Sequence record: PZ402305.1
Reading direction: 5' to 3' (one strand)
DNA length: 64,000 nt
Origin: a phage
The notes beneath the pieces are model-generated. The model saw nothing but the letters and a program-made list of their open reading frames with translations. It had not been told where the DNA came from and made no database searches. Within the stretch, counting starts at the first letter, position 1; every line of letters starts with the position of its first letter. The position numbers and the translations under genes are program-made. This document shows, piece after piece, positions 48,738 to 59,200 of this stretch.

Positions 48738-48797
48738 TTGACGTTCGCCAGGTGGCGGCATAATATTTACCACGTAGGGCGGCAATGGTGCCGCTCA
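48738..48797 (+). promoter_or_regulatory. early promoter P1 + 5' stem-loop
   Basis: TTGACG-17-TAATAT-ttac-CACGTAGGGCGGCAATGGTGCCGCTCA; stem GCGGCA/TGCCGC. Confidence 0.7.
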
Positions 48798-48815
48798 CTA
48801 TTTGGAGTTAAGATC

Positions 48816-49013
48816 ATGGCAACATTGCACATTGTGGCGAAAGCTGGACAAATCAACGTAATAGTAAACGGTTTTACTGAGTTCAGTCATCCCCAGGATG
48901 ATCATGAAACGGTTTTATCTTTCATTGATTCACTGTTAGAAATGGGAGTAATTACAGAAGATCAGCATACTGCAAAATGCAAGCGCGTTAAGCAGATTGC
49001 AGGAATAGAATAA
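48816..49013 (+). CDS. early small protein (65 aa)
   Basis: ORF track start 48726 lies upstream of promoter P1; ATG at 48816 follows RBS ggag. Confidence 0.55.
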   Translation: MATLHIVAKAGQINVIVNGFTEFSHPQDDHETVLSFIDSLLEMGVITEDQHTAKCKRVKQIAGIE

Positions 49014-49018
49014 AAGTC

Positions 49019-49076
49019 TTGACAACAAGCCACAACCTGATAAGATGTATCACATAGGGGCGACAAGCGCCCCGCC
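49019..49076 (+). promoter_or_regulatory. early promoter P2 + 5' stem-loop
   Basis: TTGACA-16-TAAGAT-gtat-CACATAGGGGCGACAAGCGCCCCGCC. Confidence 0.7.
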
Positions 49077-49097
49077 TAACAGAAGAGAGAAATCATC

Positions 49098-49370
49098 ATG
49101 GCATCATATAGCGCAACAATGATCGTAACTGGCACCACTGGTAAACCGATGAGCGGTGGCGGATCTTTCGCTAATATCAATATTGACGGGCGTTTATCCC
49201 TGGACGCAGCGATTGCCATTGCACGGGAAACATTTAAGAAAGAATGTAATTTCAACAAGCAAGATTATCTCGGTTTCGCTATTGAAAAAACCGCGCGCTT
49301 TGTTGATTATAAAAGCCCGAAAATGGTTGATACTACACTAAAAGCGCAAGATGTAGCGTTTTTGCTTTAA
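49098..49370 (+). CDS. early small protein (90 aa)
   Basis: RBS agaagagag; follows P2. Confidence 0.6.
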   Translation: MASYSATMIVTGTTGKPMSGGGSFANINIDGRLSLDAAIAIARETFKKECNFNKQDYLGFAIEKTARFVDYKSPKMVDTTLKAQDVAFLL

Positions 49371-49373
49371 GGC

Positions 49374-49429
49374 TTGACATTAACGAATAATTTGTTAATA
49401 TGTTACATAAAGCGGGAATAGTTCCCGCT
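49374..49429 (+). promoter_or_regulatory. early promoter P3 + 5' stem-loop
   Basis: TTGACA-17-TAATAT-gtt-ACATAAAGCGGGAATAGTTCCCGCT. Confidence 0.7.
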
Positions 49430-49446
49430 ATTTGTAAGGTGGTAGA

Positions 49447-49704
49447 ATGTTTTACATCAAATTAAAAGGTCACGTGATCGCGTTCAAAGATAACGCTTTT
49501 TACAGATTAGCAAAATATGCGTTAATACATCCCCACTATGTTTATATAAGGGGGCGTGACGAAATAAATATTTTTGATCAAACAACATGCGAAAACATCG
49601 AGATCCGCAAGGTTGGCGTACGTGATTATCGTACATCTTTCTACCCTTGCAAGGATTCAGCAAGTCTTTTTAAGGTATGTCAATTGTTGAAAAAAGGTGG
49701 TTAA
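49447..49704 (+). CDS. early small protein (85 aa)
   Basis: RBS aaggtgg; follows P3. Confidence 0.6.
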   Translation: MFYIKLKGHVIAFKDNAFYRLAKYALIHPHYVYIRGRDEINIFDQTTCENIEIRKVGVRDYRTSFYPCKDSASLFKVCQLLKKGG

Positions 49705-49705
49705 T

Positions 49706-50263
49706 ATGGGCCGCGAATATGTGATCCAGTCTTGGGTAAAACATGAAGCAGATGATCCGCGCATCATTCCCGATCATCTTATCGATGAATCCACGGGATA
49801 TAGCGGTGAGCAAATAGGTAGCAGATTAGCACGTAGTAACGGCAACGTAAAAGCGCGTTATGTGCGCCCTGGCTGGCTGGCAAATGGTAACGCTGATTTA
49901 TCCAGTGCGGAAGATGCGAGCGACGGCGCGAAAGATAATCCTTTGTACAAAGTTGATCCGGCTTTTCGTGTCCTGGATGAATACCCCAGCAAGATAGCGG
50001 CGCTCGATCAGGCCCTGGAAAGTAAGCGCATCACCTGGACCGCTTACAACATGGCAAAAAACGTACTTGATGGTAAATTGATTCAAGCTGAAAGAAAATT
50101 AGCCAAAATTGCAGCCATAGCCCAGGAGGAAGACGAGGAGACAACGGAAGAGGAAGAGTACGAAGAGATCCCGCCGTTGTTGTGCGTTGATGCTTTTCCT
50201 GATTATCAGCCGACAGAGGAAGAAAAAAGGATCGCACTAGAAAACTTTGAAAATAGTCTTTGA
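49706..50263 (+). CDS. early acidic protein (185 aa)
   Basis: ATG at 49706 after RBS aaaaggtgg (ORF track GTG 49697); C-terminal third strongly acidic (EEDEETTEEEEYEE). Confidence 0.55.
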   Translation: MGREYVIQSWVKHEADDPRIIPDHLIDESTGYSGEQIGSRLARSNGNVKARYVRPGWLANGNADLSSAEDASDGAKDNPLYKVDPAFRVLDEYPSKIAALDQALESKRITWTAYNMAKNVLDGKLIQAERKLAKIAAIAQEEDEETTEEEEYEEIPPLLCVDAFPDYQPTEEEKRIALENFENSL

Positions 50264-50319
50264 CATATCGCCGCCACTGGCATAATATTTACCACGTAGG
50301 GCGGCAATGGTGCCGCTCA
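50259..50319 (+). promoter_or_regulatory. early promoter P4 + 5' stem-loop
   Basis: TTGACA overlapping preceding stop; CATAAT -10; stem-loop identical to P1. Confidence 0.7.
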
Positions 50320-50345
50320 TAGTGAAATTATGCAAGAGGCTTACA

Positions 50346-50441
50346 ATGATTAATAAAGAAAATAGCTTGACGGTTGGAACGATTAACGCTATCATTTTCG
50401 CCGTTCCATTTTGGGTTGTATTAGCGGCTATTATTTTCTAA
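50346..50441 (+). CDS. early hydrophobic micro-protein (31 aa)
   Basis: Not in ORF track (<60 aa); ATG after agagg; MINKENSLTVGTINAIIFAVPFWVVLAAIIF is a single TM helix; sits between P4 and P5. Confidence 0.35.
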   Translation: MINKENSLTVGTINAIIFAVPFWVVLAAIIF

Positions 50442-50451
50442 AAAAATATTC

Positions 50452-50512
50452 TTGACAACGTTTTTTAATCTGATAAGATGTATCACATAGGGCGGCGGAA
50501 TACTTCCCCGCC
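50452..50512 (+). promoter_or_regulatory. early promoter P5 + 5' stem-loop
   Basis: TTGACA-16-TAAGAT-gtat-CACATAGGGCGGCGGAATACTTCCCCGCC. Confidence 0.7.
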
Positions 50513-50533
50513 AAAACAAAAAAGGGTAACACA

Positions 50534-50896
50534 ATGAGCAAGCAAATCAATACTATCATGTTTAATCTGGTATCTTTCCGCGATGATATGAAAAATTTAC
50601 CACGTGAAACGGTTGATATTCATGTTTCAGCTTATCGCGCCCTTATTGATATGTTACCGCTAAAACGTGATCAACATGCCGCTAATATGATGCTTAATGC
50701 TATGCTTAAAAAGATGATTCAAACGGATCTTACTCTGGCGTATGAGTATCAAGGGCGCTTATATGCTACTTACAACAAAGCGGTACCTGGTCTGGGAAGT
50801 ACCGAAGAGTTGCACGGCTTAAACCTGGATCAAAACACTTGGGATAGTATGCGCCGCGTTATGGTATGGGCCGAAAGCGGTAAAATTTACGAATAA
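50534..50896 (+). CDS. early small protein (120 aa)
   Basis: RBS aaaggg; follows P5. Confidence 0.6.
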   Translation: MSKQINTIMFNLVSFRDDMKNLPRETVDIHVSAYRALIDMLPLKRDQHAANMMLNAMLKKMIQTDLTLAYEYQGRLYATYNKAVPGLGSTEELHGLNLDQNTWDSMRRVMVWAESGKIYE

Positions 50897-50902
50897 AAAC
50901 GG

Positions 50903-50959
50903 TTGACACTGTTTAAAATTCTGGTATAGTTTATCACGTAGGGCGGCAATGGTGCCGCC
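50903..50959 (+). promoter_or_regulatory. early promoter P6 + 5' stem-loop
   Basis: TTGACA-17-TATAGT-ttat-CACGTAGGGCGGCAATGGTGCCGCC. Confidence 0.7.
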
Positions 50960-50979
50960 AATAATAAAAGGTTAACATC

Positions 50980-51159
50980 ATGGCTATCATTGCAAAAACT
51001 GAGATTATAGGTTTAGATTCGATCCTCCTGGCTTATGAGGAAACTTTAAAAATGTATGTAGTGACCTATGGTGATTATGTGCGTGAATACGAATACATTG
51101 ATCTTGCTTTCGAATGTTACATTCGCCAGGTCAATAAAGCCTATAACGATTATCGTTAA
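50980..51159 (+). CDS. early small protein (59 aa)
   Basis: Not in ORF track; RBS aaaagg; ATG at 50980 follows P6. Confidence 0.45.
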   Translation: MAIIAKTEIIGLDSILLAYEETLKMYVVTYGDYVREYEYIDLAFECYIRQVNKAYNDYR

Positions 51160-51178
51160 AAGTTTTAGTCTTATACTA

Positions 51179-51230
51179 TTGACAATGAGTGATAGTATAA
51201 GCATAATAACTTTTATCGGGAATACTTCCC
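51179..51230 (+). promoter_or_regulatory. early promoter P7 + 5' stem-loop
   Basis: TTGACA-...-CATAAT-...-CGGGAATACTTCCC. Confidence 0.6.
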
Positions 51231-51256
51231 ACTAACCAAAAAGAGAGAGTGACACC

Positions 51257-51622
51257 ATGGCTATTAATATCAATGTTTCCGTTTATGCTACCCTGGCTGA
51301 CACGGCTAAAATTGAATTATCCAGCATTGAGGCGGTGCATATTAGCGCCCGTCGCTGGTTTCAACAGTCCTACGGTAACACATATTTTTCTTTAATAGTT
51401 GACGTTGAGATCGGCGGTAAACTGATCGAGGTGGTTAACGTTCCGTTTCAATATGGCTATGGTGATCATTTTGATACCGTCGCCCTGGAAGAATTTAGCA
51501 AGGTTATCAACCTTGAGGGCAAGGAATTTTCACGCGGCGCGTATCTTTCCCGTTTTTGCCGTGACAATGGGATCACTGTATACAGTCATGCAAGCGATGT
51601 AAAACGTAAAAAAGATTTATAA
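51257..51622 (+). CDS. early small protein (121 aa)
   Basis: RBS aagagagag; follows P7. Confidence 0.6.
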   Translation: MAININVSVYATLADTAKIELSSIEAVHISARRWFQQSYGNTYFSLIVDVEIGGKLIEVVNVPFQYGYGDHFDTVALEEFSKVINLEGKEFSRGAYLSRFCRDNGITVYSHASDVKRKKDL

Positions 51623-51627
51623 AAGTA

Positions 51628-51690
51628 TTGACAGCACGAATAAAAAGAGTAAACTGTATTACATAGAGAGCGGGAACACTTCCCGCCTCA
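51628..51690 (+). promoter_or_regulatory. early promoter P8 + 5' stem-loop
   Basis: TTGACA-16-TAAACT-gtatt-ACATAGAGAGCGGGAACACTTCCCGCCTCA. Confidence 0.7.
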
Positions 51691-51710
51691 CTGAAAAAGA
51701 GAGAAAAATC

Positions 51711-51950
51711 ATGGCTAAATCTAAAATGTACAACGGTCACAAAAACAAAACTCATTGGAATGTAAGCCTTTGGATTAATAACGATGAATCATTATATCGG
51801 TTGGCGAAAGAATTTATCGCCGCTAATACTAATCGTAATGATGCTGCGCGGGATATGATGCTTTTTCTGGAACAAACTGGACAAGATAAAACGCCAGACG
51901 GTTTCAAATATAGCACTACTGCGATCCGCGCCGCGATGGTTGGAATGTAA
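51711..51950 (+). CDS. early small protein (79 aa)
   Basis: RBS aaagagag; follows P8. Confidence 0.6.
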   Translation: MAKSKMYNGHKNKTHWNVSLWINNDESLYRLAKEFIAANTNRNDAARDMMLFLEQTGQDKTPDGFKYSTTAIRAAMVGM

Positions 51951-51959
51951 TAAAAACAG

Positions 51960-52019
51960 TTGACAACGTTTAAAATTAGTGTAAGATGTATCACATAGGG
52001 CGGGAAGTGGTTTCCCGCC
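51960..52019 (+). promoter_or_regulatory. early promoter P9 + 5' stem-loop
   Basis: TTGACA-16-TAAGAT-gtat-CACATAGGGCGGGAAGTGGTTTCCCGCC. Confidence 0.7.
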
Positions 52020-52041
52020 AACAACAGAGAGATTAAAGATT

Positions 52042-52269
52042 ATGGCTATCAATATTGTTCGCGTATCCGGCACCGTTGGCACTTCCCAGGTTATTGCAGT
52101 TGTAACAAACAAAAAGATTAATGATGTATGTGAGATCTTGAATAAGTGGGCTATTGCTAATTTTGGGGAATATGCAAGCGTCGAGTACATCGAATCCTAC
52201 CAGGTGCCAACCATCAGCCTAACCGATCTCAACGTTGATCGCCTGTTATGCCTGGATGAATTAATCTGA
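52042..52269 (+). CDS. early small protein (75 aa)
   Basis: RBS agagag; follows P9. Confidence 0.6.
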   Translation: MAINIVRVSGTVGTSQVIAVVTNKKINDVCEILNKWAIANFGEYASVEYIESYQVPTISLTDLNVDRLLCLDELI

Positions 52270-52278
52270 AAAAGATTG

Positions 52279-52337
52279 TTGACACGGGAAAGAAAAAGAG
52301 TAAACTATATTACGTAGGGCGGCAATGGTGCCGCTCA
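52279..52337 (+). promoter_or_regulatory. early promoter P10 + 5' stem-loop
   Basis: TTGACA-16-TAAACT-atat-TACGTAGGGCGGCAATGGTGCCGCTCA. Confidence 0.7.
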
Positions 52338-52359
52338 CAACAGAAGAGAGATTATCACG

Positions 52360-52572
52360 ATGGCTAATATCCGCACACTGTTAAAAAATGCAAAACAAGT
52401 TTTATTTTCTGATCACAATCATTTTAATAAAGATATTACAGGCGTGAAGAATATCAAAGATGTAAAAAGTGTTATGGGTATATATTGCAATGTTAAACGT
52501 GTTGGAACGTTCGGTGACAAGGTATTGTATCAATCAGGTGATTACAATTTTACTTTGACGATTATTTCATAA
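52360..52572 (+). CDS. early small protein (70 aa)
   Basis: RBS agaagagag; follows P10. Confidence 0.6.
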   Translation: MANIRTLLKNAKQVLFSDHNHFNKDITGVKNIKDVKSVMGIYCNVKRVGTFGDKVLYQSGDYNFTLTIIS

Positions 52573-52577
52573 AACGC

Positions 52578-52638
52578 TTGCAATACTGCAAAAATAAAGT
52601 AAACTGTATTACATCAAGGCGGGGAATGGTCCACCGCC
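52578..52638 (+). promoter_or_regulatory. early promoter P11 + 5' stem-loop
   Basis: TTGCAA-...-TAAACT-gtatt-ACATCAAGGCGGGGAATGGTCCACCGCC. Confidence 0.65.
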
Positions 52639-52662
52639 TAACAAAGAGAAGAGGAAAACATC

Positions 52663-52830
52663 ATGATTACTTTTACTACCCGTGAAGCCGCTCGCAACGT
52701 TGCACGTAAAGTTAACGCCGCCAACCTGGGTGCTACGCTTAAAGCCCCTGTAAAAGATGAATCAGGCAAATGGATCTTCCCTGGTCTGCGTCATGCTGAC
52801 AAGTTAGGTACTTTAAGCCTTAAAAAATAA
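52663..52830 (+). CDS. early small basic protein (55 aa)
   Basis: Not in ORF track; RBS agaggaaaa; follows P11. Confidence 0.45.
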   Translation: MITFTTREAARNVARKVNAANLGATLKAPVKDESGKWIFPGLRHADKLGTLSLKK

Positions 52831-52833
52831 TCG

Positions 52834-52871
52834 TTGACTTTTCGTTATAGCGCCTTATAATGGGCGCTATA
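52834..52871 (+). promoter_or_regulatory. early promoter P12 with -10 embedded in palindrome
   Basis: TTGACT then TATAGCGCC-TTATAAT-GGGCGCTATA perfect inverted repeat enclosing the TATAAT hexamer. Confidence 0.55.
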
Positions 52872-52908
52872 GAGAAGAGAAACCAATCACCAGAAAGAGA
52901 GAAAGAAA

Positions 52909-53127
52909 ATGGCAATCCGTAAAATTAAAGTTGTTTGCATTGAATCAACTGGTGGCGCGTTTGTAGTTGGTCAGAAGTATAATGCGGTTTTAATGGGCGT
53001 GGATTGGAAGGTTAAAGGTCTTGACGGTTACGAATACGGCACTACTCGCGGCTTGCGTGGTCGAATCGGATACGTGAGCTTTGACAACAAAGAAAAATTT
53101 GTTTTCGATACTGTTATGAGTAAATAG
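52909..53127 (+). CDS. early small protein (72 aa)
   Basis: RBS agagagaaag; follows P12. Confidence 0.6.
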   Translation: MAIRKIKVVCIESTGGAFVVGQKYNAVLMGVDWKVKGLDGYEYGTTRGLRGRIGYVSFDNKEKFVFDTVMSK

Positions 53128-53200
53128 CACGAATTGCTAAAAACTAATCTGCGAATTGCTGTAATATCAACTAATCGAAACACATAAAGAGAAAAACATC

Positions 53201-53422
53201 ATGATCACTTTCGCTATTGTCACCGTTGTCGCTGGTCAAGTTTACGTAAATGAGACATTTACTACAGAAGACAAAGCAGCAGGAGATATAACCGCCGTTT
53301 ACAACGAGTGCAAGGCAGTAGAAAGGATGTTAGCGCCTTGTATGCTAATGAGTGAACGCCAGGACGGGATAACAGTGTTTAGCAACATTGAAACAGGGTA
53401 CCAAATGGTAGTAACAAAATAA
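53201..53422 (+). CDS. early small protein (73 aa)
   Basis: RBS aaagagaaa; upstream promoter less clear (TTGCTA / TGTAATAT), no stem-loop. Confidence 0.55.
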   Translation: MITFAIVTVVAGQVYVNETFTTEDKAAGDITAVYNECKAVERMLAPCMLMSERQDGITVFSNIETGYQMVVTK

Positions 53423-53425
53423 AAC

Positions 53426-53483
53426 TTGACACAGATTTAATTTTCAGTAAACTGTTACACATAGGGCGGGAATAGTTCCCGCT
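53426..53483 (+). promoter_or_regulatory. early promoter P13 + 5' stem-loop
   Basis: TTGACA-...-TAAACT-gtta-CACATAGGGCGGGAATAGTTCCCGCT. Confidence 0.7.
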
Positions 53484-53500
53484 AAAAAGAGAGAAAGACC

Positions 53501-53854
53501 ATGAAAGCACAAAATGCAATTAAAGAGTACATCCTTGCCGCTATCGATTTTAATGATTATGGTATTACAACCGAAAAAGAGAAGATCGCGGAATTGATGC
53601 GCCGTTTTAATTCCGAGTACTGGTACCCTGATAATCAATCACGTTTTAATTATAGTATTGTTAAAGCACTTGCATCATGGTTACAAGGTTTGCCATCAGA
53701 CATTAATATCGCTTTCGAATATTGGGAAATTGATCGTTTGTTAACATCCTGGGGATACATTAAAGAGAATAGCAGCGATGATAAAATCCAACGAGAAAGG
53801 GAAAATTATTGGCTTTATATTGCAGGCGTGATCCTTGCTTGCTCTTATGAATGA
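53501..53854 (+). CDS. early small protein (117 aa)
   Basis: RBS aagagagaaag; follows P13. Confidence 0.6.
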   Translation: MKAQNAIKEYILAAIDFNDYGITTEKEKIAELMRRFNSEYWYPDNQSRFNYSIVKALASWLQGLPSDINIAFEYWEIDRLLTSWGYIKENSSDDKIQRERENYWLYIAGVILACSYE

Positions 53855-54135: not shown

Positions 54136-54321
54136 ATGACTTTAAACGAGCTTAAAACAGCCTACAACGCAACGTTAAAAATAGCCGTGCGTTACCGTGA
54201 CGAATACGGTTTTATTGCGCAGGGCGTGATCCTGGGCTTTTCTGACGATGGTTTGATTTATGTTGATGCACATCACAACAAGGTTAAACCGGAAAACGTT
54301 ATCAGTATAAAATATCTTTAA
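54136..54321 (+). CDS. early small protein (61 aa)
   Basis: RBS agaggataaa. Confidence 0.5.
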   Translation: MTLNELKTAYNATLKIAVRYRDEYGFIAQGVILGFSDDGLIYVDAHHNKVKPENVISIKYL

Positions 54322-54327
54322 AAGTGG

Positions 54328-54388
54328 TTGACACCATAACCGGACCTGTTAAACTGTATTACATCAGGCGGGGGAATAGTTCCCCACC
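54328..54388 (+). promoter_or_regulatory. early promoter P15 + 5' stem-loop
   Basis: TTGACA-...-TAAACT-gtatt-ACATCAGGCGGGGGAATAGTTCCCCACC. Confidence 0.65.
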
Positions 54389-54407
54389 ATACAAAAAGGT
54401 AAATATT

Positions 54408-54614
54408 ATGATCACCGCAAAACAAGAAAAAATCATTATCGACGTTGCAGCCGTTGCCGCTATTGCTATTATTGGATCTTATTATGATACCCGTTTCCCG
54501 TCGGCTATGCATGAGGTCGCCGCCGTTGCATCAGTTGGCGTACTGTTTTACGTTGGTAAACGCTATTTATCACCAATGATTAACAAGCTGACACCGTGGA
54601 AAAATAAAGGTTGA
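54408..54614 (+). CDS. early small membrane protein (68 aa)
   Basis: ORF track start 54324 is upstream of promoter; ATG at 54408 after aaaaagg; hydrophobic helix VAAVAAIAIIGSYY. Confidence 0.5.
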   Translation: MITAKQEKIIIDVAAVAAIAIIGSYYDTRFPSAMHEVAAVASVGVLFYVGKRYLSPMINKLTPWKNKG

Positions 54615-54668
54615 TCCTGTTTTATATTGTGTTATAGTTATCGTGTAGGGCGGCAATGGTGCCGCGCC
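54611..54668 (+). promoter_or_regulatory. early promoter P16 + 5' stem-loop
   Basis: TTGATC-...-TATAGT-tatc-GTGTAGGGCGGCAATGGTGCCGCGCC. Confidence 0.6.
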
Positions 54669-54685
54669 CCTTTGAGGATGCAATC

Positions 54686-54970
54686 ATGAGTAAAGCTAAC
54701 ACCGTGCTAATGTTTTCCCTGATTAATGATCCCGCTTACTTGTCCAACATGACGCAGGAGGGTAACACATTAACGGCAACATTCACCAATAAGCTTGACC
54801 GAGTGATCATCATCTCACTGAAAACAGTTAGTAAAGGCTTTTACTCGTTAGCTTATCATTGGATCACTGATACCGATGAGACAAGCCAGGACTATAGCGC
54901 CCCTTTCCCTGAATCAATGGCACGGGAGATCATCGCCGCCGTTGTAAATGATGGTTTGTTTACTGCATAA
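54686..54970 (+). CDS. early small protein (94 aa)
   Basis: ORF track start 54656 overlaps stem-loop; ATG at 54686 after gaggatg. Confidence 0.5.
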   Translation: MSKANTVLMFSLINDPAYLSNMTQEGNTLTATFTNKLDRVIIISLKTVSKGFYSLAYHWITDTDETSQDYSAPFPESMAREIIAAVVNDGLFTA

Positions 54971-54985
54971 AAATTTAGAAAAGGC

Positions 54986-55042
54986 TTGCAATAATTTTGA
55001 GATAGTGTATATTTAATTCATAGGGCGGCGGGAATAGTTCCC
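54986..55042 (+). promoter_or_regulatory. early promoter P17 + 5' stem-loop
   Basis: TTGCAA-...-TATATT-taat-TCATAGGGCGGCGGGAATAGTTCCC. Confidence 0.6.
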
Positions 55043-55065
55043 AAAGCAAACGAGAGGATTACACG

Positions 55066-55185
55066 ATGAGCAAGTACACAGTAGAATACACGGTAGAGAA
55101 TCCGGCAGTATCCGAAGGTAAAAAGATGACATTTGCCATCAGTATAATCGCTTTCGTTGTCACTATCTTATCAATCATCTTATAA
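55066..55185 (+). CDS. early hydrophobic micro-protein (39 aa)
   Basis: Not in ORF track; RBS gagagg; C-terminal TM helix FAISIIAFVVTILSIIL. Confidence 0.35.
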   Translation: MSKYTVEYTVENPAVSEGKKMTFAISIIAFVVTILSIIL

Positions 55186-55195
55186 GGTGCACACC

Positions 55196-55357
55196 ATGAA
55201 AATAACAGACATTATCAAAGAGATCGCCCTTGCCGCTGGCGTTGAAGTCGAGGAAGTGATCGCGCTCAATCTTACAGAAAACGATCTGCGCAACTATGAA
55301 GCGGAAAGCGTGAAAGCAAGCGGCGCGGTCCTGGTATATGATCCGGCTAACAAGTAA
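55196..55357 (+). CDS. early small protein (53 aa)
   Basis: ORF track start 55157; ATG at 55196 after taaggtg. Confidence 0.45.
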   Translation: MKITDIIKEIALAAGVEVEEVIALNLTENDLRNYEAESVKASGAVLVYDPANK

Positions 55358-55366
55358 GGGGATAAC

Positions 55367-55477
55367 ATGAATCCGAAAGATATGCAAGCATGGAAAGGGT
55401 ACGACGATCTAAGCGCCTTGCGCAATAAGTCAAGCCGTAACCTTAGACGGTTGGAAGCAAAGAAAAAGAAAAAATAG
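55367..55477 (+). CDS. early small basic protein (36 aa)
   Basis: Not in ORF track; RBS aagggga; ends in KKKKK. Confidence 0.3.
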   Translation: MNPKDMQAWKGYDDLSALRNKSSRNLRRLEAKKKKK

Positions 55478-55478
55478 T

Positions 55479-55537
55479 TTGACAAGTCCGCGTAGTCTGA
55501 TAATATGTATCTTGTAGGGCGGCAATGGTGCCGCTCA
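55479..55537 (+). promoter_or_regulatory. early promoter P18 + 5' stem-loop
   Basis: TTGACA-17-TAATAT-gtat-CTTGTAGGGCGGCAATGGTGCCGCTCA. Confidence 0.7.
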
Positions 55538-55555
55538 CAAGAAGAGAGAAAAATC

Positions 55556-55840
55556 ATGAAAATTACAAAAAGCCTAACTAATTATGCAGCACGTCGCGGA
55601 TTATGTTTAACCGTTGAAAACTTAGGGAAAGAAGACTTTTTGTGTTTTTGGGAGCTTGAAAATGATTGCGAGTGGATGTTTTCTTATTCTATCTGCGAAG
55701 ATCAAAACGGTTGTTTGTTAACCTGGCGCGGTAATATCTATTTACCGGAAGAAATCAAAGAGGAACTACCAGGCACGATCATGACTGAGAAACAGCTTAA
55801 GGAAGTGATCAATTTTGTAGGGCAAAACATTAAAAAATAA
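55556..55840 (+). CDS. early small protein (94 aa)
   Basis: ORF track start 55505 is inside promoter; ATG at 55556 after agaagagagaaaa. Confidence 0.55.
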   Translation: MKITKSLTNYAARRGLCLTVENLGKEDFLCFWELENDCEWMFSYSICEDQNGCLLTWRGNIYLPEEIKEELPGTIMTEKQLKEVINFVGQNIKK

Positions 55841-55841
55841 T

Positions 55842-55907
55842 TTGACAGTAGGCAAACAACGTAGTAAAGTTTATTACATAGAGCGGCGGAATGGTCCACC
55901 GCTCACA
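55842..55907 (+). promoter_or_regulatory. early promoter P19 + 5' stem-loop
   Basis: TTGACA-...-TAAAGT-ttatt-ACATAGAGCGGCGGAATGGTCCACCGCTCA. Confidence 0.65.
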
Positions 55908-55925
55908 ACAGAAGAGAAACAAATC

Positions 55926-56096
55926 ATGATCCCGACTATGTTTTATGTATCGCGCAAAGGTCACAATATTTTTTGGTCTGAAGATTTAAATGAAGCTATG
56001 ACGTTTGCCCGTAATCGTGTTGCTATCGGTGGCGTTAACATCACCGTAACCGATGAAAATGGCATTGAATACTATAACGGCGACGATGAAGAATAA
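55926..56096 (+). CDS. early small protein (56 aa)
   Basis: ORF track start 55842 overlaps promoter; ATG at 55926 after agaagagaaac. Confidence 0.5.
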   Translation: MIPTMFYVSRKGHNIFWSEDLNEAMTFARNRVAIGGVNITVTDENGIEYYNGDDEE

Positions 56097-56101
56097 TTAA
56101 T

Positions 56102-56128
56102 GAGGCGGGGGGAGTATTCCCCGCCGTC
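56102..56128 (+). promoter_or_regulatory. promoter-less GC stem-loop (terminator/processing-site candidate)
   Basis: GAGGCGGGGGGAGTATTCCCCGCCGTC hairpin of the same type as the 5' stem-loops but without upstream TTGACA. Confidence 0.4.
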
Positions 56129-56174
56129 AATATGGCGGGGCAATAAGGCAACGCCCATTAATGAGGGTAAAATC

Positions 56175-56279
56175 ATGTTAGAGAAAATTTTCACGGTTGC
56201 AGTGGTTGGCCTGGCGTTATCGGTTGGAGTGGTTGCAACTATGGCTAACATGATCCTATCTTCCCACGGTATCGGTTAA
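56175..56279 (+). CDS. early hydrophobic micro-protein (34 aa)
   Basis: Not in ORF track; RBS gagggtaaa; MLEKIFTVAVVGLALSVGVVATMANMIL is a TM helix. Confidence 0.35.
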   Translation: MLEKIFTVAVVGLALSVGVVATMANMILSSHGIG

Positions 56280-56289
56280 GGTGAAACAA

Positions 56290-56505
56290 ATGATCACGAA
56301 CAAAACAGGCAAAACGGAATTTTTACGCGGCTTACAAGTTGGTAAGCCTGAGATCTGGCATTGCACGAAGTCCGCGCATAATGAAATGAAAGATTTCACC
56401 GCTACTTTACAACGTGTTAAAATATCTATTACACAGAAAAAAGCCTTGTTAGTAGTAGAAAACGAGATCCCACAAACTATTATTATTGTCGAGCGTACAG
56501 CATGA
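56290..56505 (+). CDS. early small protein (71 aa)
   Basis: ATG at 56290 after taaggtg (ORF track GTG 56281). Confidence 0.5.
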   Translation: MITNKTGKTEFLRGLQVGKPEIWHCTKSAHNEMKDFTATLQRVKISITQKKALLVVENEIPQTIIIVERTA

Positions 56506-56888
56506 AAACAGAAATCATTATTGAAATCATCAACGGCTATAAAGAAGCTTTTATTTTTGCTGAATCAGCAAGGGATCATGAAGGTAATTTTATTGATAAC
56601 TTAGACGATTATGATTTTTCTCCTAGCGCGGACGAACGGATCGCCCAGGATGTAACAGCCTTTATTAATGCTAATCTTGCCGCTATCTCTGAGGCAATGA
56701 GCGACGGCGCAACAGCCAACCAGATCGGGAATGATTTACATTTTACCCGTAACAGTCACGGCGTAGGCTTTTGGGATCGCCCTGAAATATACACCACTAA
56801 CACGGCGAACCGCCTAACCAATGCAGCTAAGTTTATGCCGAACGTGTCGGCTTACATTGGTGAAGATAATTTGATTTATATTGAATAA
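56502..56888 (+). CDS. early protein (128 aa)
   Basis: 4-nt overlap with upstream gene. Confidence 0.55.
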   Translation: MKTEIIIEIINGYKEAFIFAESARDHEGNFIDNLDDYDFSPSADERIAQDVTAFINANLAAISEAMSDGATANQIGNDLHFTRNSHGVGFWDRPEIYTTNTANRLTNAAKFMPNVSAYIGEDNLIYIE

Positions 56889-56894
56889 AAAGTA

Positions 56895-56953
56895 TTGACA
56901 CAGATCGCCAGTGTGCTAATATTTACCACGTAGGGCGGCAATGGTGCCGCTCC
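56895..56953 (+). promoter_or_regulatory. early promoter P20 + 5' stem-loop
   Basis: TTGACA-17-TAATAT-ttac-CACGTAGGGCGGCAATGGTGCCGCTCC. Confidence 0.7.
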
Positions 56954-56971
56954 CCGAAAAAGGTAAACATT

Positions 56972-57163
56972 ATGGAAACCATCTCCTACCTGGAATCGAA
57001 TAACATGTTTTTTGCGCCCGTTGATGAAATCATCGAAGCATTAAACAACGAGGAAGGGATCAAAGGTTTATCTTATAGCCAACTTTTAGGAATGGTTGCA
57101 GCAAATGAAGAGCTTGCTTACTATGTTGAAAATTTTGATGAAGCTGTAATCTTTACAAAATAA
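56972..57163 (+). CDS. early small acidic protein (63 aa)
   Basis: RBS aaaaagg; follows P20. Confidence 0.55.
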   Translation: METISYLESNNMFFAPVDEIIEALNNEEGIKGLSYSQLLGMVAANEELAYYVENFDEAVIFTK

Positions 57164-57166
57164 TCC

Positions 57167-57223
57167 TTGATCTAATCTCTTAGATAACTTATATTTAATG
57201 CGTAGGGCGGCAATGGTGCCGCC
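57167..57223 (+). promoter_or_regulatory. early promoter P21 + 5' stem-loop
   Basis: TTGATC-...-TATATT-taa-TGCGTAGGGCGGCAATGGTGCCGCC. Confidence 0.6.
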
Positions 57224-57241
57224 GATAATGAGGAAAGTAAA

Positions 57242-57541
57242 ATGGAAACTATCGCTATTGTTACCGTAGAAAAACTGGTTGTTGGTGATGTATTCGCGTT
57301 AATGGTGCCTAACAGCAGCAAACTGGGCGCTTATGAAGTAATGGATCATAAAAATGAATCATTTGGCGACGGTTGCACAATGGCGGTAAAATCTTTAAAG
57401 GATGGAATCATCCGCCAGGCTAACTGGCACAAAGGGAATCAAGTCGGTTTAATATCAGCTAATTTCTTGCCAGAAGAGCAAACGTTAGACCAACTATCAG
57501 GCGGTAAGACGTTAGCCGAGCTACTGGAAACAGCGATCTAA
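57242..57541 (+). CDS. early small protein (99 aa)
   Basis: RBS gaggaaag; follows P21. Confidence 0.6.
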   Translation: METIAIVTVEKLVVGDVFALMVPNSSKLGAYEVMDHKNESFGDGCTMAVKSLKDGIIRQANWHKGNQVGLISANFLPEEQTLDQLSGGKTLAELLETAI

Positions 57542-57549
57542 TCAACAAA

Positions 57550-57565
57550 GGGGCGGCAACGCCCC
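57550..57565 (+). promoter_or_regulatory. promoter-less GC stem-loop
   Basis: GGGGCGgcaaCGCCCC perfect hairpin between genes, no T-run. Confidence 0.4.
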
Positions 57566-57585
57566 ACATCAGAAAGGAAAAGATT

Positions 57586-57822
57586 ATGAGTATTGCAACA
57601 GTATTAAACGCCGTTAAAACCGCTGAATCATCCGGCTTGCATGTTGAGCTTATAGATCAACCAGGTGGCGATCTCCTTGTCCAGGTTTACCCGCCGAAAG
57701 TAGGGGATGATCATTATTGGTGCTATTCTGATACGTTCGAACAAGTAGACACGAAAGCGATCACGGCTTTTATTTTAAAAGCTATTGAAGAAAATAACTT
57801 TCATTATAACATCAATCAATAA
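57586..57822 (+). CDS. early small protein (78 aa)
   Basis: RBS aaaggaaaag. Confidence 0.55.
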   Translation: MSIATVLNAVKTAESSGLHVELIDQPGGDLLVQVYPPKVGDDHYWCYSDTFEQVDTKAITAFILKAIEENNFHYNINQ

Positions 57823-57879
57823 ACTTTAAGCAGGGGGCGGTAACGCCCTATTAAACGCAATAGGAAGAGGATAGAAAGC

Positions 57880-58170
57880 ATGAAAAAGATGATCGCAGTA
57901 GTTGCCCTGGTTGTTGGTATTAACGCGCCTGTAATGGCTAATGATTTGCCTGAATCCATCGCGTTAACCGATATCAACGCGGTAAACCGGATCGGCGTTA
58001 ATTATCGCCTATGCCTTGCCGCTAAAACTTTCCAGGACGGCACGACAGAATACCACGGATTCGAGGGTGTCCGGTGCGGTGAGCTTGCACGCGACCTTAA
58101 GGAAGATCCAGACCTTGAGGCCATACCGATGACCGTAAACGGTAAAGCTTACGTAAACCGCCAACAATGA
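57880..58170 (+). CDS. early secreted small protein (96 aa)
   Basis: Signal peptide MKKMIAVVALVVGINAPVMA; RBS aggaagagg. Confidence 0.55.
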   Translation: MKKMIAVVALVVGINAPVMANDLPESIALTDINAVNRIGVNYRLCLAAKTFQDGTTEYHGFEGVRCGELARDLKEDPDLEAIPMTVNGKAYVNRQQ

Positions 58171-58181
58171 GAAAGGTAATC

Positions 58182-58409
58182 ATGACAATGGGGATCATAG
58201 TAGCAACGCTGGCGCTGATCCCCTTCCTGGTTGAATATGTGCTGATTAGTGTTGTCCTGGTAGTCAGTGACTTATTGGAAACGGTTGGCACCTGGGAGCA
58301 GGGGAAGATAATCACCGGACGACCCCGCTATATATTGATAGCTAACATCTATCAAACAACAAAACATCAAAGAGATAAACTATCAAATCTTTACAATCCT
58401 ACCTATTGA
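58182..58409 (+). CDS. early small membrane protein (75 aa)
   Basis: ATG at 58182 after gagaaagg (ORF track 58167); two hydrophobic helices. Confidence 0.45.
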   Translation: MTMGIIVATLALIPFLVEYVLISVVLVVSDLLETVGTWEQGKIITGRPRYILIANIYQTTKHQRDKLSNLYNPTY

Positions 58410-58464
58410 CACCGGATCACGCTTACATTATCATTTATCACGTAGGGCGGGAATGTTTCCCGCC
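58406..58464 (+). promoter_or_regulatory. early promoter P22 + 5' stem-loop
   Basis: TTGACA-...-CATTAT-...-CACGTAGGGCGGGAATGTTTCCCGCC. Confidence 0.65.
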
Positions 58465-58482
58465 TGATTTAGGAGTCATATC

Positions 58483-58716
58483 ATGATCGAACAAATTAAA
58501 AGCACTAAACCAAATGTTAACGGTAATGTTTCTCACTTTATCGGGGATAATGAAAGAGGTACACCGTACGCCGCCGTAACCGTTCAACCGAACGGGGATT
58601 ATTGGTTTACCGTGTACGGATCTTACTCTTTTGGACGTTCGGCACATGATAAGATCTTGCAAGTGGTTAAGCCTACTGGGAAGAATATCACAGCAGAAAA
58701 ATTTTATAAAAAATAA
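58483..58716 (+). CDS. early small protein (77 aa)
   Basis: RBS taggag; follows P22. Confidence 0.6.
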   Translation: MIEQIKSTKPNVNGNVSHFIGDNERGTPYAAVTVQPNGDYWFTVYGSYSFGRSAHDKILQVVKPTGKNITAEKFYKK

Positions 58717-58727
58717 CTTGCTTTATA

Positions 58728-58777
58728 GCTCCTGTTAACTTATAGTTATTGCGTAGGGCGAGCAATACAGCAAGCCC
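58728..58777 (+). promoter_or_regulatory. early promoter P23 + variant 5' stem-loop
   Basis: TTGCTT-...-TATAGT-tatt-GCGTAGGGCGAGCAATACAGCAAGCCC. Confidence 0.5.
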
Positions 58778-58794
58778 ACAAAGAGGAAAAGAAG

Positions 58795-59163
58795 ATGAGC
58801 AAATCAGCAATTAAAGCACTTGAAAAAGCACAAGAAGTGATCGCAACGTCAACCACTGGCGCAAAGGTTAATCTCGTTGGTTATCTGACAGATGAAACTA
58901 TCCGTAAAAATTGGCGTAATGCTGATTTACTGGCTTGCTTATTGATTAATAGTGTCGCTAATGCTTTCCAGTGTGAAACAGCCGAGAGCCTGGAGGAAAA
59001 CTTGTTTGATAATATGGATCAAGCCATTGAAACCTATATACAATCAAACATGGATAGCTGGAACAGTAAAACATGGCCCGACAATTTACGCGATACAACT
59101 GATCAACTGATCCGCCTTGCCTTGATGGTTGAACGCGATAACGTTCACAACCGCACAAAGTAA
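58795..59163 (+). CDS. early protein (122 aa)
   Basis: RBS aagaggaaaag; last gene of block. Confidence 0.6.
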   Translation: MSKSAIKALEKAQEVIATSTTGAKVNLVGYLTDETIRKNWRNADLLACLLINSVANAFQCETAESLEENLFDNMDQAIETYIQSNMDSWNSKTWPDNLRDTTDQLIRLALMVERDNVHNRTK

Positions 59164-59171
59164 GATTATAC

Positions 59172-59200
59172 AAGGGGCGCACCAAGCGCCCTTTCTTTTT
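59172..59200 (+). terminator. rho-independent terminator (copy 2)
   Basis: aaGGGGCGCaccaaGCGCCCtttcttttt; same core as 54087-54114. Confidence 0.8.

What the first reader, a model, noticed from the sequence alone, without database searches (positions are those of the whole stretch)
48738..59200. About 34 small genes, most with their own strong promoter and a 5' stem-loop
Across 10.5 kb nearly every small gene (31-185 aa) has its own near-consensus sigma70 promoter (TTGACA, 16-17 nt spacer, TAnnnT). Directly downstream of the -10, before the RBS, sits a GC-rich hairpin; I count 23 such units. This is far denser and more regular than ordinary operon organisation and looks like a dedicated immediate-early or host-takeover module. 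The encoded proteins have no recognisable domains; several are predicted membrane micro-proteins, one is strongly acidic.
Basis: seen in the sequence. Interest (0 to 1): 0.85.

Follow-up and report, generated by a model that had tools for sequence, protein, structure and literature searches.

The report
Shuffling promoter-hairpin gene cassettes in phage
A 10.5-kb stretch of a phAPEC8-like E. coli phage holds 34 tiny genes of unknown function, and 23 of them carry their own copy of one repeated ~80-base "promoter + hairpin + ribosome site" cassette; related phages have deleted, inserted and reordered genes by recombining between these cassettes, much as described for T4-type phages.

Summary
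The window is a Phapecoctavirus, about 97% identical to phage tuntematon. Positions 48738-59200 hold 34 + strand genes of 31-185 aa.

The strict composite motif (TTGACA, N16-17, TAnnnT, N8-16, GCGG) occurs 15 times in the window against 0.06 expected by chance.

In order it contains an A-rich tract, the -35 box, the -10 box, tATCAC(A/G)TA, a GGGCGG...CCGC stem-loop, a purine-rich RBS and ATC-ATG.

These cassettes are the crossover points for gene loss, gain and reordering among relatives. I found chimeric cassettes at base resolution, genus-specific loop variants shared by all paralogous copies, and permuted gene order between genera.

This is the logic of the PeSL cassettes of T4-type phages. 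It differs in two ways. The phage belongs to another lineage, and the stem-loop lies after the -10 box, so it sits in the 5' leader of the cassette's own mRNA. No U-tract follows the hairpins, unlike the two true terminators in the cluster.

I infer a 5'-end mRNA-stabilising role for the hairpin. That role is not shown. Early timing and a "host takeover" function are plausible but untested.

Verdict: a new variant of a known kind, of moderate interest.

The parts
48816..59163 (+). Array of 34 small genes g01-g34 (31-185 aa)
   Evidence: Gene map with RBS-based start codons. Matches 31-37 annotated hypothetical CDSs in the closest relatives, e.g. tuntematon. Pfam hits only Phage_1_1 (g16, 53934-54080) and one DUF7249.
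48738..48815 (+). Cassette g01: TTGACG-17-TAATAT, leader hairpin GGGCGGCAATGGTGCCGCTC (48776-48795)
49019..49097 (+). Cassette g02: TTGACA-16-TAAGAT, hairpin 49057-49073
49374..49446 (+). Cassette g03: TTGACA-16-TAATAT, hairpin AGCGGGAATAGTTCCCGCT (49411-49429)
50260..50345 (+). Cassette g05: TTGACA-17-TAATAT, hairpin 50298-50317
50452..50533 (+). Cassette g06: TTGACA-16-TAAGAT, hairpin 50491-50512
50903..50979 (+). Cassette g07: TTGACA-16-TATAGT, hairpin 50942-50959
51179..51256 (+). Cassette g08: TTGACA-17-CATAAT, weak hairpin 51218-51230 (-4 kcal/mol)
51628..51710 (+). Cassette g09: TTGACA-16-TAAACT, hairpin 51666-51689
51960..52041 (+). Cassette g10: TTGACA-16-TAAGAT, hairpin 51999-52019
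52279..52359 (+). Cassette g11: TTGACA-16-TAAACT, hairpin 52314-52338
   Evidence: Crossover partner in the nieznany deletion of g11.
52578..52662 (+). Cassette g12: TTGCAA-16-TAAACT, hairpin 52617-52639
52834..52908 (+). Cassette g13, different geometry: TTGACT-16-TATAAT with the stem-loop TATAGCGCC/GGCGCTATA enclosing the -10 box (RB49-type PeSL layout)
53426..53500 (+). Cassette g15: TTGACA-16-TAAACT, hairpin 53465-53483
53861..53933 (+). Cassette g16: TTGACA-16-TAAATT, hairpin 53897-53914
54087..54115 (+). True intrinsic terminator AAGGGCGCACCAAGCGCCCTT followed by TCTTTTT, after g16
   Evidence: T-run contrast
54328..54407 (+). Cassette g18: TTGACA-16-TAAACT, hairpin 54367-54388
54611..54685 (+). 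Cassette g19: TTGATC-16-TATAGT, hairpin 54648-54668
54986..55065 (+). Cassette g20: TTGCAA-16-TATATT, degenerate hairpin 55025-55047
55479..55555 (+). Cassette g23: TTGACA-16-TAATAT, hairpin 55510-55542
   Evidence: Crossover partner in the nieznany deletion of g23-g28.
55842..55925 (+). Cassette g24: TTGACA-17-TAAAGT, hairpin 55881-55904
56097..56174 (+). Promoter-less spacer before g25 with two hairpins (56104-56125 and about 56138-56157). It is a deletion scar of a gene plus promoter that anhysbys still has.
56895..56971 (+). Cassette g28: TTGACA-16-TAATAT, hairpin 56929-56956
   Evidence: g28 is absent from tuntematon, with the crossover in the hairpin.
57167..57241 (+). Cassette g29: TTGATC-17-TATATT, hairpin 57206-57223
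   Evidence: Crossover partner in the nieznany and tuntematon events.
57550..57565 (+). Orphan hairpin GGGGCGGCAACGCCCC before g30, no promoter
   Evidence: Crossover partner in the anhysbys deletion of g30.
57833..57849 (+). Orphan hairpin GGGGGCGGTAACGCCCT before g31, no promoter
58406..58482 (+). Cassette g33: TTGACA-17-TATCAT, hairpin 58445-58465
   Evidence: Crossover in the anhysbys deletion of g33.
58718..58794 (+). Cassette g34: TTGCTT-17-TATAGT, hairpin 58753-58779
59172..59202 (+). True intrinsic terminator closing the cluster: AAGGGGCGCACCAAGCGCCCTTT followed by CTTTTT
   Evidence: Duplicated around an extra gene in tuntematon.
26800..26883 (-). The only cassette of this family outside the cluster: TTGACA-16-TAAGAT-GTATCACATGAGGCGGGGAGTGGTTCCCCGC, upstream of the TerC-like membrane protein gene
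   Evidence: The tuntematon equivalent lies before gp093.

Best explanation
The region is the hyperplastic accessory-gene region of a Phapecoctavirus. It is built from self-contained expression cassettes, each followed by one small ORF (or by two or three translationally coupled ORFs).

Each ~80-nt cassette supplies four things: (1) an A-rich, UP-like tract that includes the stop codon of the gene before it; (2) a near-consensus sigma70 promoter read by unmodified host RNA polymerase, so expression is presumably early; (3) a transcribed 8-10-bp GC-rich stem-loop that begins about 3-5 nt from the predicted 5' end; (4) an unstructured purine-rich RBS with ATC-ATG.

Shown here: the cassette is one repeated sequence family confined to this cluster. 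It is the place where related phages have deleted, inserted, replaced and reordered genes by recombination between cassettes.

Inferred: the stem-loop's main molecular role is to cap the 5' end of these short mRNAs against 5'-end-dependent decay by RppH and RNase E. On read-through transcripts it may also serve as a 3' barrier. The genes are inferred to be early accessory functions such as host takeover or counter-defence.
For: Repeat family and specificity:
- Alignment of 23 cassettes shows conserved blocks from the A-tract to the ATG.
- The composite motif occurs 15 times against 0.06 expected. The hairpin family occurs at 16 sites against 0.17 matches expected, all inside the cluster.
- Across the whole tuntematon genome, 16 of 17 strict motifs lie in this cluster. 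One lies before the TerC-like gene. None lie in the other ~77 kb, loci L017-L018.
- Of the 10 exact-consensus promoter matches outside the cluster, only the TerC-gene cassette (26883) has the conserved initial sequence and hairpin. Mean folding energy of +5..+44 is -14.7 kcal/mol inside the cluster and, for those 10 outside sites, averages about -6.

Structure is conserved despite sequence variation: among 24 distinct hairpins from three genera, native folds average -13.05 kcal/mol and arm-swapped chimeras average -9.08. 85% of chimeras are weaker than their parents.

Leader geometry: the hairpin starts 0-6 nt from the predicted start site. Median dG is -12.6 and the median z-score against shuffles is about -3. 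Only 1.3 T occur in the 10 nt after the stem, against 8 and 6 T for the terminators at 54087 and 59172. The SD-to-AUG stretch is predicted 88% unpaired. Established knowledge: 5' secondary structure stabilises E. coli mRNA because RppH and RNase E need single-stranded 5' ends (review PMC3997798).

Recombination:
- 23 of 28 alignment breakpoints against three close relatives fall in spacers or within 11 nt of a start codon. Flanking alignments overlap by 11-76 nt.
- Chimeric cassettes are visible at base resolution in 7 of 7 whole-gene deletions.
- A complete cassette plus ORF is inserted exactly between a stop codon and the next RBS. The g25 spacer is a deletion scar.
- Gene order is permuted and identities are mosaic (35-98%) against Justusliebigvirus. 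Only 6 of 34 genes are shared with Vequintavirus, and one of them is relocated.
- Evolution is concerted. The 8 Phapecoctavirus genomes sampled each carry 2-7 copies (4-7 where the whole cluster was fetched) of the ATGG-loop variant, and only one genome also has a single ATAG copy. The Justusliebigvirus has 3 ATAG and no ATGG copies.

Precedents: PeSLs in T4-type phages. Sigma70-like promoters concentrated in the short-ORF 'likely early' region of Certrevirus (PMC7344957).
Against: - No transcript 5' or 3' ends, half-lives or timing data exist for this phage group in the searched library.
- The predicted unpaired 5' segment is up to 5-6 nt if transcription starts at the first purine. That may be too long for full protection.
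- G.T and A.C mismatches in the stems are equally frequent (10 against 11). Nothing therefore shows that the structure is selected in RNA rather than in DNA.
- Other apparently good promoters of the same phage do without the hairpin. It could be a passenger of the recombining cassette.
- In RB49 a PeSL stem-loop (no U-tract is described for these stem-loops) cut read-through as strongly as rrnB T1 (PMC2839356). A terminator or attenuator role therefore cannot be excluded from sequence alone.
- Breakpoints in spacers are partly expected from purifying selection against broken genes.
Confidence: 0.7

Rival explanations
1. The stem-loops are transcription terminators or attenuators for the upstream gene. 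This is the original PeSL reading. Each gene would then be an insulated unit, and the position after the next promoter would be incidental.
For: The PeSL stem-loop of RB49 reduced lacZ read-through as much as rrnB T1 (PMC2839356). The annotators of phage ASO2A called these very hairpins rho-independent terminators with WebGeSTer. Orphan hairpins without promoters sit between g24/g25, g29/g30 and g30/g31. One cassette (g13) and the - strand promoter at 48360 have the stem-loop overlapping the promoter, as in RB49.
Against: The hairpins lie downstream of their own start site, so an efficient terminator would also abort the cassette's own strong transcript. No U-tract follows them (1.3 T in 10 nt), whereas the phage uses canonical hairpin-plus-T-run terminators at 54087 and 59172. 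A hairpin placed after the promoter cannot shield that promoter from occlusion by upstream transcription.
Confidence: 0.2
2. The conserved CAC(A/G)UAGGGCGG-loop-CCGC element is a specific binding site, in RNA or DNA, for a phage or host protein that co-regulates all cassette genes. Examples would be shut-off of early mRNAs, a translational repressor, or a nut/put-like modification of polymerase.
For: The base of the stem and the 5' flank are conserved in sequence, not only in structure, across three genera. The element is absent from the phage's other promoters. It has a fixed distance from the promoter.
Against: The upper stem and the loop vary freely, with 15 different loops among 24 variants. 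No candidate binding protein was identified. Sequence conservation is also explained by common descent plus gene conversion. Rfam has no matching family.
Confidence: 0.1
3. The hairpin has no expression function. The cassette persists only as a self-propagating homology patch kept uniform by gene conversion, and it spreads with the ORFs it flanks.
For: Concerted evolution of loop variants. Crossovers fall in whichever block is identical. There is no strand asymmetry of wobble pairs. Other promoters work without it.
Against: Pairing is maintained through compensated arm changes, which neutral homology would not require. Position relative to the -10 box is tightly constrained (8-14 nt) and the RBS is kept out of the structure. 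The architecture is kept across subfamilies at 75-80% cassette identity.
Confidence: 0.1

Closest known systems
PeSL (promoter-early stem-loop) cassettes of T4-type phages RB49/phi1, T4/PST and KVP40/nt-1 (Arbiol et al. 2010, PMC2839356; Comeau et al. 2014, PMC4122927)
   Same: Each is a ~100-bp or smaller intergenic cassette. Each has an AT-rich tract, a strong sigma70-like promoter, a GC-rich stem-loop, and an SD plus start codon. Both flank small ORFans in hyperplastic regions. In both, chimeric cassettes and indels between close relatives map to them.
   Different: The host phages here are Stephanstirmvirinae and Vequintavirinae, not T4-type. In 22 of 23 units the stem-loop lies after the -10 box, inside the cassette's own transcript. 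[quoted passage not shown] The sequences are unrelated. Terminator activity and mini-circles are untested here.
Sigma70-like early promoter arrays of Vequintavirinae (Certrevirus CB7/CR3/CR8/CR9, PMC7344957; rV5, PMC3606486)
   Same: The same kind of promoter (A-tract, TGTTGAC, TATAAT-like box) is concentrated in a region of short hypothetical ORFs that the authors call the likely early region. FV3 (Vequintavirus) carries the same cassette.
   Different: Those papers describe promoters only. They do not mention the leader hairpin, the cassette as a repeat, or its role in recombination.
5'-terminal stabilising stem-loops of E. coli and phage mRNAs (ompA and papA 5' UTRs, summarised in PMC3997798; T7 phi10 leader, from my own knowledge)
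   Same: A stable hairpin lies within a few nucleotides of the 5' end, ahead of an open RBS.
   Different: Those are single, experimentally tested leaders. Here the same hairpin family is repeated 22 times and its effect on stability is only inferred.
SPO1 host-takeover module (Stewart et al. 1998; recalled from memory, not checked here)
   Same: A dense cluster of about two dozen small early genes, served by many unusually strong host-type promoters.
   Different: A Bacillus phage, located in the terminal redundancy. No repeated promoter-hairpin cassette or cassette-mediated shuffling is known to me there.
Integron gene cassettes (attC hairpins)
   Same: ORF-sized modules bounded by imperfect inverted repeats, gained and lost as units. 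The PeSL authors draw the same analogy.
   Different: No integrase is present. Crossovers fall at different points of the cassette (-10 box, start region, hairpin, RBS), which fits homology-driven and not site-specific recombination. Each cassette brings its own promoter.

Membership tests
PeSL cassettes (T4-type phages) | Near-consensus sigma70-like early promoter | tested here: met
   16 exact TTGACA and 7 with one or two mismatches; spacer 16-17 nt; TAnnnT
PeSL cassettes (T4-type phages) | AT-rich tract upstream of the -35 box | tested here: met
   Alignment consensus AAAAAAA before TTGACA
PeSL cassettes (T4-type phages) | Stable stem-loop as part of the cassette | tested here: met
   Median dG -12.6 kcal/mol, z about -3; arm-swap test
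PeSL cassettes (T4-type phages) | Stem-loop placed upstream of, between the boxes of, or overlapping the -10 box of the promoter, i.e. ahead of the cassette's own start site | tested here: not met
   In 22 of 23 units the stem begins 8-14 nt after the -10 box. Only g13 (enclosing the -10 box) and the - strand promoter at 48360 (between the boxes) have the PeSL layout.
PeSL cassettes (T4-type phages) | SD and start codon at the 3' end; intergenic, flanking small ORFans in a hyperplastic region | tested here: met
   Only 14 of 292 related records cover at least 80% of the region.
PeSL cassettes (T4-type phages) | Indels and replacements between close relatives with breakpoints in the cassettes, producing chimeric cassettes | tested here: met
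PeSL cassettes (T4-type phages) | Stem-loop terminates or attenuates upstream transcription | not testable with these tools
   Sequence shows no U-tract. Needs in vitro transcription or Term-seq.
PeSL cassettes (T4-type phages) | Excised mini-circles (ORF plus one chimeric cassette) during infection | not testable with these tools
   Needs inverse PCR on infected cells.
PeSL cassettes (T4-type phages) | Carried by a T4-type genome | tested here: not met
   Stephanstirmvirinae; Phapecoctavirus
Intrinsic (rho-independent) terminator | GC-rich hairpin immediately followed by a U-tract | tested here: not met
   Cassette hairpins have a mean of 1.3 T in the next 10 nt. Met only by 54087 and 59172.
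5'-terminal mRNA-stabilising stem-loop | Hairpin within about 0-4 unpaired nt of the real 5' end | tested here: inconclusive
   Predicted 0-6 nt (median 5, or 3 if the start is the second purine). Start sites are not mapped.
5'-terminal mRNA-stabilising stem-loop | Lengthens mRNA half-life in an RppH/RNase E-dependent way | not testable with these tools
   Needs half-life measurements.
Integron-like site-specific cassette system | Constant crossover point at a recombination site, with a dedicated recombinase | tested here: not met
   Crossovers fall in four different cassette blocks. No integrase is annotated in or near the cluster in tuntematon.
Rfam cis-regulatory RNA families | Match to a curated covariance model | tested here: not met
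   No hits at gathering threshold. One chance-level hit at E = 0.34.

The most novel reading that the evidence does not exclude
The leader element, with its invariant GGGCGG 5' arm and CAC(A/G)UA flank, is a specific recognition tag and not merely a stabiliser. One option is a 'self' mark that exempts these phage mRNAs from phage-induced host mRNA decay, or that times their shut-off. Relatives of this group are reported to encode an Srd-like protein (PMC3606486). The other option is a folded single-strand DNA site that a phage nuclease or recombinase uses, making this an integron-like gene-capture system in a virulent phage.
Probability: 0.12. Interest if true: 0.8.

Novelty: new variant of a known kind. 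Interest (0 to 1): 0.45.

Why it matters
It extends cassette-mediated modular shuffling beyond T4-type phages, the only group where it has been described (two papers). It now reaches two other subfamilies of large virulent coliphages that are common in phage-therapy collections. This suggests a general way in which large lytic phages turn over accessory genes while each incoming gene arrives with its own expression signals.

The relocated stem-loop gives a natural experiment on what such hairpins do: terminator or 5' cap. The cassettes mark out 34 or more small, strongly expressed ORFans, which vary between strains. These are prime candidates for host-takeover or anti-defence functions.

The cassette is also a compact, naturally optimised unit of promoter, leader and RBS for E. 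coli.

Tried and rejected
- RNAalifold on a MAFFT alignment of 27 hairpins failed, because loop and stem lengths differ and the 3' arms fell out of register. I replaced it with an arm-swap folding test.
- Strand asymmetry of G.T against A.C mismatches, meant to separate an RNA-level from a DNA-level role, gave 10 against 11 and is uninformative.
- Rfam found nothing at gathering or at permissive thresholds.
- Literature searches for a description of these cassettes in Phapecoctavirus, rV5, PVP-SE1 or phi92-like phages, and for transcriptomes of this group, found only promoter and terminator counts, the CB7 promoter description, and no transcript data.
- Pfam and PHROG scans of all 34 proteins gave essentially no function.
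- The idea that the cluster sits at a genome end and is injected first, as in T5, was dropped. Record start points are arbitrary, and in phiWec179 (LC739533, 154,443 bp) the cluster lies mid-genome.
- The RNase III processing-site idea was rejected because 8-10-bp stems are too short for that enzyme. This rests on established knowledge and was not tested.
- The odd 'Campylobacter phage' hits turned out to be 140-150-kb records carrying the same coliphage-type cassette. They are probably mislabelled.
- Technical limit: only the first locus fetched after each script run reached the sandbox. The base-level breakpoint analysis therefore used three close relatives instead of seven.

Full report
**Identity and context**

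Megablast of 48738-59200 against phage genomes finds 292 records. The best are Phapecoctavirus genomes (tuntematon, EP57, Mt1B1_P17) at about 97% identity. Only 14 records cover at least 80% of the region. In those relatives the stretch is annotated almost entirely as hypothetical proteins. The window's + strand is the reverse of the tuntematon record.

The cluster is bracketed by two non-coding stretches, 47560-48360 and 59200-60800. It lies downstream of an ATPase/FtsH-like gene, an endonuclease gene and a YbiA-like gene, going by the annotations of tuntematon and Bas60.

**Checking the observation**

I called start codons by RBS and obtained 34 + strand genes of 31-185 aa between 48816 and 59163.
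- Twenty-four of the 27 internal spacers are 71-97 nt long. Six genes are tightly coupled to the gene before them.
- TTGACA-N15-18-TAnnnT occurs 30 times in the window against 4.8 expected, and 15 of these are on the + strand of this stretch.
- A script that asked for a promoter followed within 20 nt by a GC-rich stem found 18 strict units here. It found one real unit elsewhere, at 26883 on the - strand. Reading the spacers adds five units with degenerate -35 boxes.
- In total, 22 units have the hairpin after the -10 box and one (g13) has a hairpin enclosing the -10 box.
- The composite motif TTGACA-N16/17-TAnnnT-N8-16-GCGG occurs 15 times against 0.06 expected.
- The hairpin family GGCGG-N6-14-CCGCY occurs at 16 sites, all between 48427 and 58464, against 0.17 matches expected.

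The phrase 'nearly every gene' is somewhat generous, because 23 of 34 genes have a full unit.

**The unit is a repeated cassette**

Aligning the 23 spacers shows conserved blocks along the whole length. In order these are an A-rich tract that contains the previous stop codon, TTGACA, a 16-17-nt spacer, TAAnnT, tATCAC(A/G)TA, GGGCGG-loop-CCGC(T/C), a purine-rich stretch (CAACAGAAGAGAGA) and ATC-ATG. In g07-g11 the similarity runs into the first codons (ATGGCTA).

The hairpin is specific to the cassette. Of the 10 exact-consensus promoter matches outside the cluster, only the one before the TerC-like gene has the conserved initial sequence and the hairpin. Across the whole tuntematon genome, 16 of 17 strict motifs are in this cluster and none are in the other ~77 kb (loci L017-L018), although that part holds other clusters of small genes.

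**The hairpin**

Predicted transcripts have leaders of 39-52 nt.
- The stem begins 0-6 nt from the predicted start. The median is 5 nt, or about 3 nt if the second purine of CAC(A/G)TA is used as the start.
- Median stability is -12.6 kcal/mol, with a z-score of about -3 against shuffles.
- The 10 nt after the stem hold 1.3 T on average. The two canonical terminators at 54087 and 59172 hold 8 and 6 T and were picked up by the terminator scan.
- The SD-to-AUG stretch is predicted 88% unpaired, and the stem ends a median of 19 nt before the ATG.

Twenty-four distinct hairpin sequences from three genera keep their pairing while the upper stem and loop change. Native hairpins fold at -13.05 kcal/mol and arm-swapped chimeras at -9.08, and 85% of chimeras are weaker than their parents. 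This test is not corrected for relatedness.

Wobble asymmetry gave no verdict on RNA against DNA. Rfam has no match.

**Recombination**

I compared the cluster by blastn with tuntematon, nieznany and anhysbys.
- There are 14 junctions. Of the 28 alignment ends, 23 lie in spacers or within 11 nt of a start codon.
- For whole-gene differences, the flanking alignments overlap in the relative by 11-76 nt. This is the signature of an exchange between two similar cassettes.

At base resolution the relatives' cassettes are chimeras:
- nieznany lacks g23-g28. The promoter half of cassette 23 is joined to the RBS half of cassette 29, inside the shared 21-nt GTAGGGCGGCAATGGTGCCGC block.
- tuntematon lacks g28, with the crossover in the hairpin.
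- anhysbys lacks g30, with the crossover between the two orphan hairpins.
- anhysbys lacks g33, with the crossover at CGTAGGGCG.
- nieznany lacks g11, with the crossover at the -10 block.
- anhysbys lacks g07, with the crossover at ATCATGGCTAT.
- anhysbys lacks g13, with the crossover in the RBS.

The varied crossover points argue for homology-driven recombination and against site-specific recombination.

Gains look the same. tuntematon has a complete cassette plus ORF placed exactly between the g21 stop codon and the g22 RBS. The strange double hairpin before g25 in the window is the scar left by loss of a gene and its promoter, which anhysbys still has.

Between genera the order is permuted. 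Bas60 PaulScherrer has g05-g02-g06-X-g03-g04-g07, and protein identities of neighbouring genes range from 35% to 98%. FV3 shares only 6 of the 34 genes, with g33 relocated.

Paralogous cassettes evolve in concert. Each of the 8 Phapecoctavirus genomes sampled has 2-7 copies of the ATGG-loop hairpin (4-7 in the seven whose whole cluster was fetched), and only one genome has a single ATAG copy. The Justusliebigvirus has three ATAG copies and no ATGG copy.

**Spread**

The same cassette architecture occurs in Justusliebigvirus and Vequintavirus. A blastn search with one cassette finds it in 145 phage records, and every listed record is 137-159 kb long.

FV3 also carries a second cassette type, in which the stem-loop encloses the -35 box. 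The window itself has one unit with the stem-loop around the -10 box (g13), and one - strand promoter (48360) with the stem-loop between the boxes. The group therefore spans the range of layouts described for PeSLs.

**How it most likely works**

Shown: there is a cluster-specific repeated cassette with a near-consensus host promoter, a structurally conserved stem-loop and an open RBS, and recombination between cassettes creates gene-content and gene-order diversity.

Inferred:
- Host polymerase fires at each cassette as soon as the DNA enters the cell. This rests on the promoter type, on the CB7 authors' reading of the same arrangement, and on g16 belonging to the T7 early gene 1.1 family.
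- The stem-loop sits at the 5' end of each short mRNA and hinders RppH and RNase E. 5' secondary structure is stabilising in E. coli because both enzymes need single-stranded 5' ends (PMC3997798).
- On read-through RNA the same hairpin would sit at the end of the upstream cistron and could block 3' exonucleases.

Efficient termination is unlikely, for two reasons. The hairpin would abort its own cassette's transcript, and no U-tract is present. Partial attenuation cannot be excluded, since an RB49 PeSL stem-loop behaved as a strong terminator in a reporter assay.

**Comparison with what is known**

The closest system is the PeSL of T4-type phages. The cassette content, the genomic niche and the recombination behaviour are the same. 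The phage lineage and the position of the stem-loop relative to the start site differ, so I do not file it as a PeSL member in the strict sense. I file it as a variant that works like one.

The promoter array alone is already noted for Vequintavirinae (PMC7344957, PMC3606486). One GenBank record (ASO2A) lists the promoters and the hairpins, called terminators, as separate features. The accompanying paper gives only counts. I found no description of the cassette or of its role in shuffling for this phage group in the searched library. Subscription-only papers such as the phi92 and PVP-SE1 genome papers were not searchable.

**Verdict**

The feature is real and highly non-random. The best-supported reading is an array of PeSL-like expression and recombination cassettes in an accessory, probably early, gene region. 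It is a new variant of a known kind and of moderate interest (0.45). The most novel reading still open is that the hairpin is a specific recognition tag or a recombination site, to which I give about 12%.

Noticed in passing
window 47998-48106 (within the non-coding gap 47560-48360): Three direct repeats spaced 29 nt apart, of the form AAATGA(G/T)AATGATTC(T/G)CATTT. One (48082-48100) matches the E. coli Fur-box consensus at 16 of 19 positions, against 0.03 expected by chance. tuntematon annotates a repeat_region here. They could be an iron-responsive operator, a Fur-titrating site or origin iterons.
   Followed up: partly
window 47776-47985: A 72-nt A/T-rich direct repeat (82% identical) with internal 29-nt sub-repeats, in the same non-coding gap. 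Purpose unknown.
   Followed up: no
window 48332-48360, - strand: A strong promoter match, TTGACA-17-TATACT (11 of 12), with a stem-loop (AAGCCC...GGGCTT) between the -35 and -10 boxes, which is the RB49-type PeSL layout. It reads leftward into the ORF-poor gap that holds the Fur-box-like repeats.
   Followed up: partly
window 59200-60800: About 1.6 kb with no ORF longer than 50 aa. The + strand is A/C-rich (AT skew 0.18), with scattered short direct and inverted repeats. Relatives also lack CDSs here, and the rV5 paper shows a 'non-coding' box in its map. It could be an origin or a non-coding RNA region.
   Followed up: partly
L001 17007-17548 (tuntematon), corresponding to window 59170-59194: tuntematon has an extra 139-aa gene (gp014) inserted after the cluster. 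It is flanked by two copies of the terminator hairpin, so terminator hairpins also serve as crossover sites.
   Followed up: partly
L015 about 1200-1280, 1830-1900, 2160-2230 and 5545-5620 (phage FV3): A second repeated cassette type in Vequintavirus, TTTTTAGATGGCCTTGACTCCAGGGCCATCAATAAAGTAAACT. Its stem-loop encloses the -35 box.
   Followed up: no
GenBank MG065650, MG065639, MG065689, MG065677 ('Campylobacter phage' B15, A150, A110a, A13b): Records of 140-150 kb labelled as Campylobacter jejuni phages carry this coliphage cassette at up to 98% identity. They are probably mislabelled or contaminating Phapecoctavirus-, Justusliebigvirus- or Vequintavirus-type genomes.
   Followed up: partly
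window 50980, 51257, 51711, 52042, 52360: Five unrelated consecutive genes (g07-g11) all begin ATGGCTA (Met-Ala-Ile/Lys/Asn). Cassette similarity therefore extends into the first codons, and one crossover (anhysbys, loss of g07) lies exactly there.
   Followed up: partly
window 54656 and 55505: The hairpin loop AATGG contains an in-frame ATG. Automatic annotation can therefore extend g19 and g23 into the leader hairpin (104 aa instead of 94 aa, and 111 aa instead of 94 aa). The 312-nt CDS that tuntematon annotates at this position is consistent with such an extended start.
   Followed up: partly
window 52360-52572 (g11): The 70-aa product is annotated 'phosphoribosylpyrophosphate synthetase' in tuntematon and anhysbys. 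Pfam gives no such hit for any of the 34 proteins. The name looks like an annotation artefact that has been propagated.
   Followed up: partly
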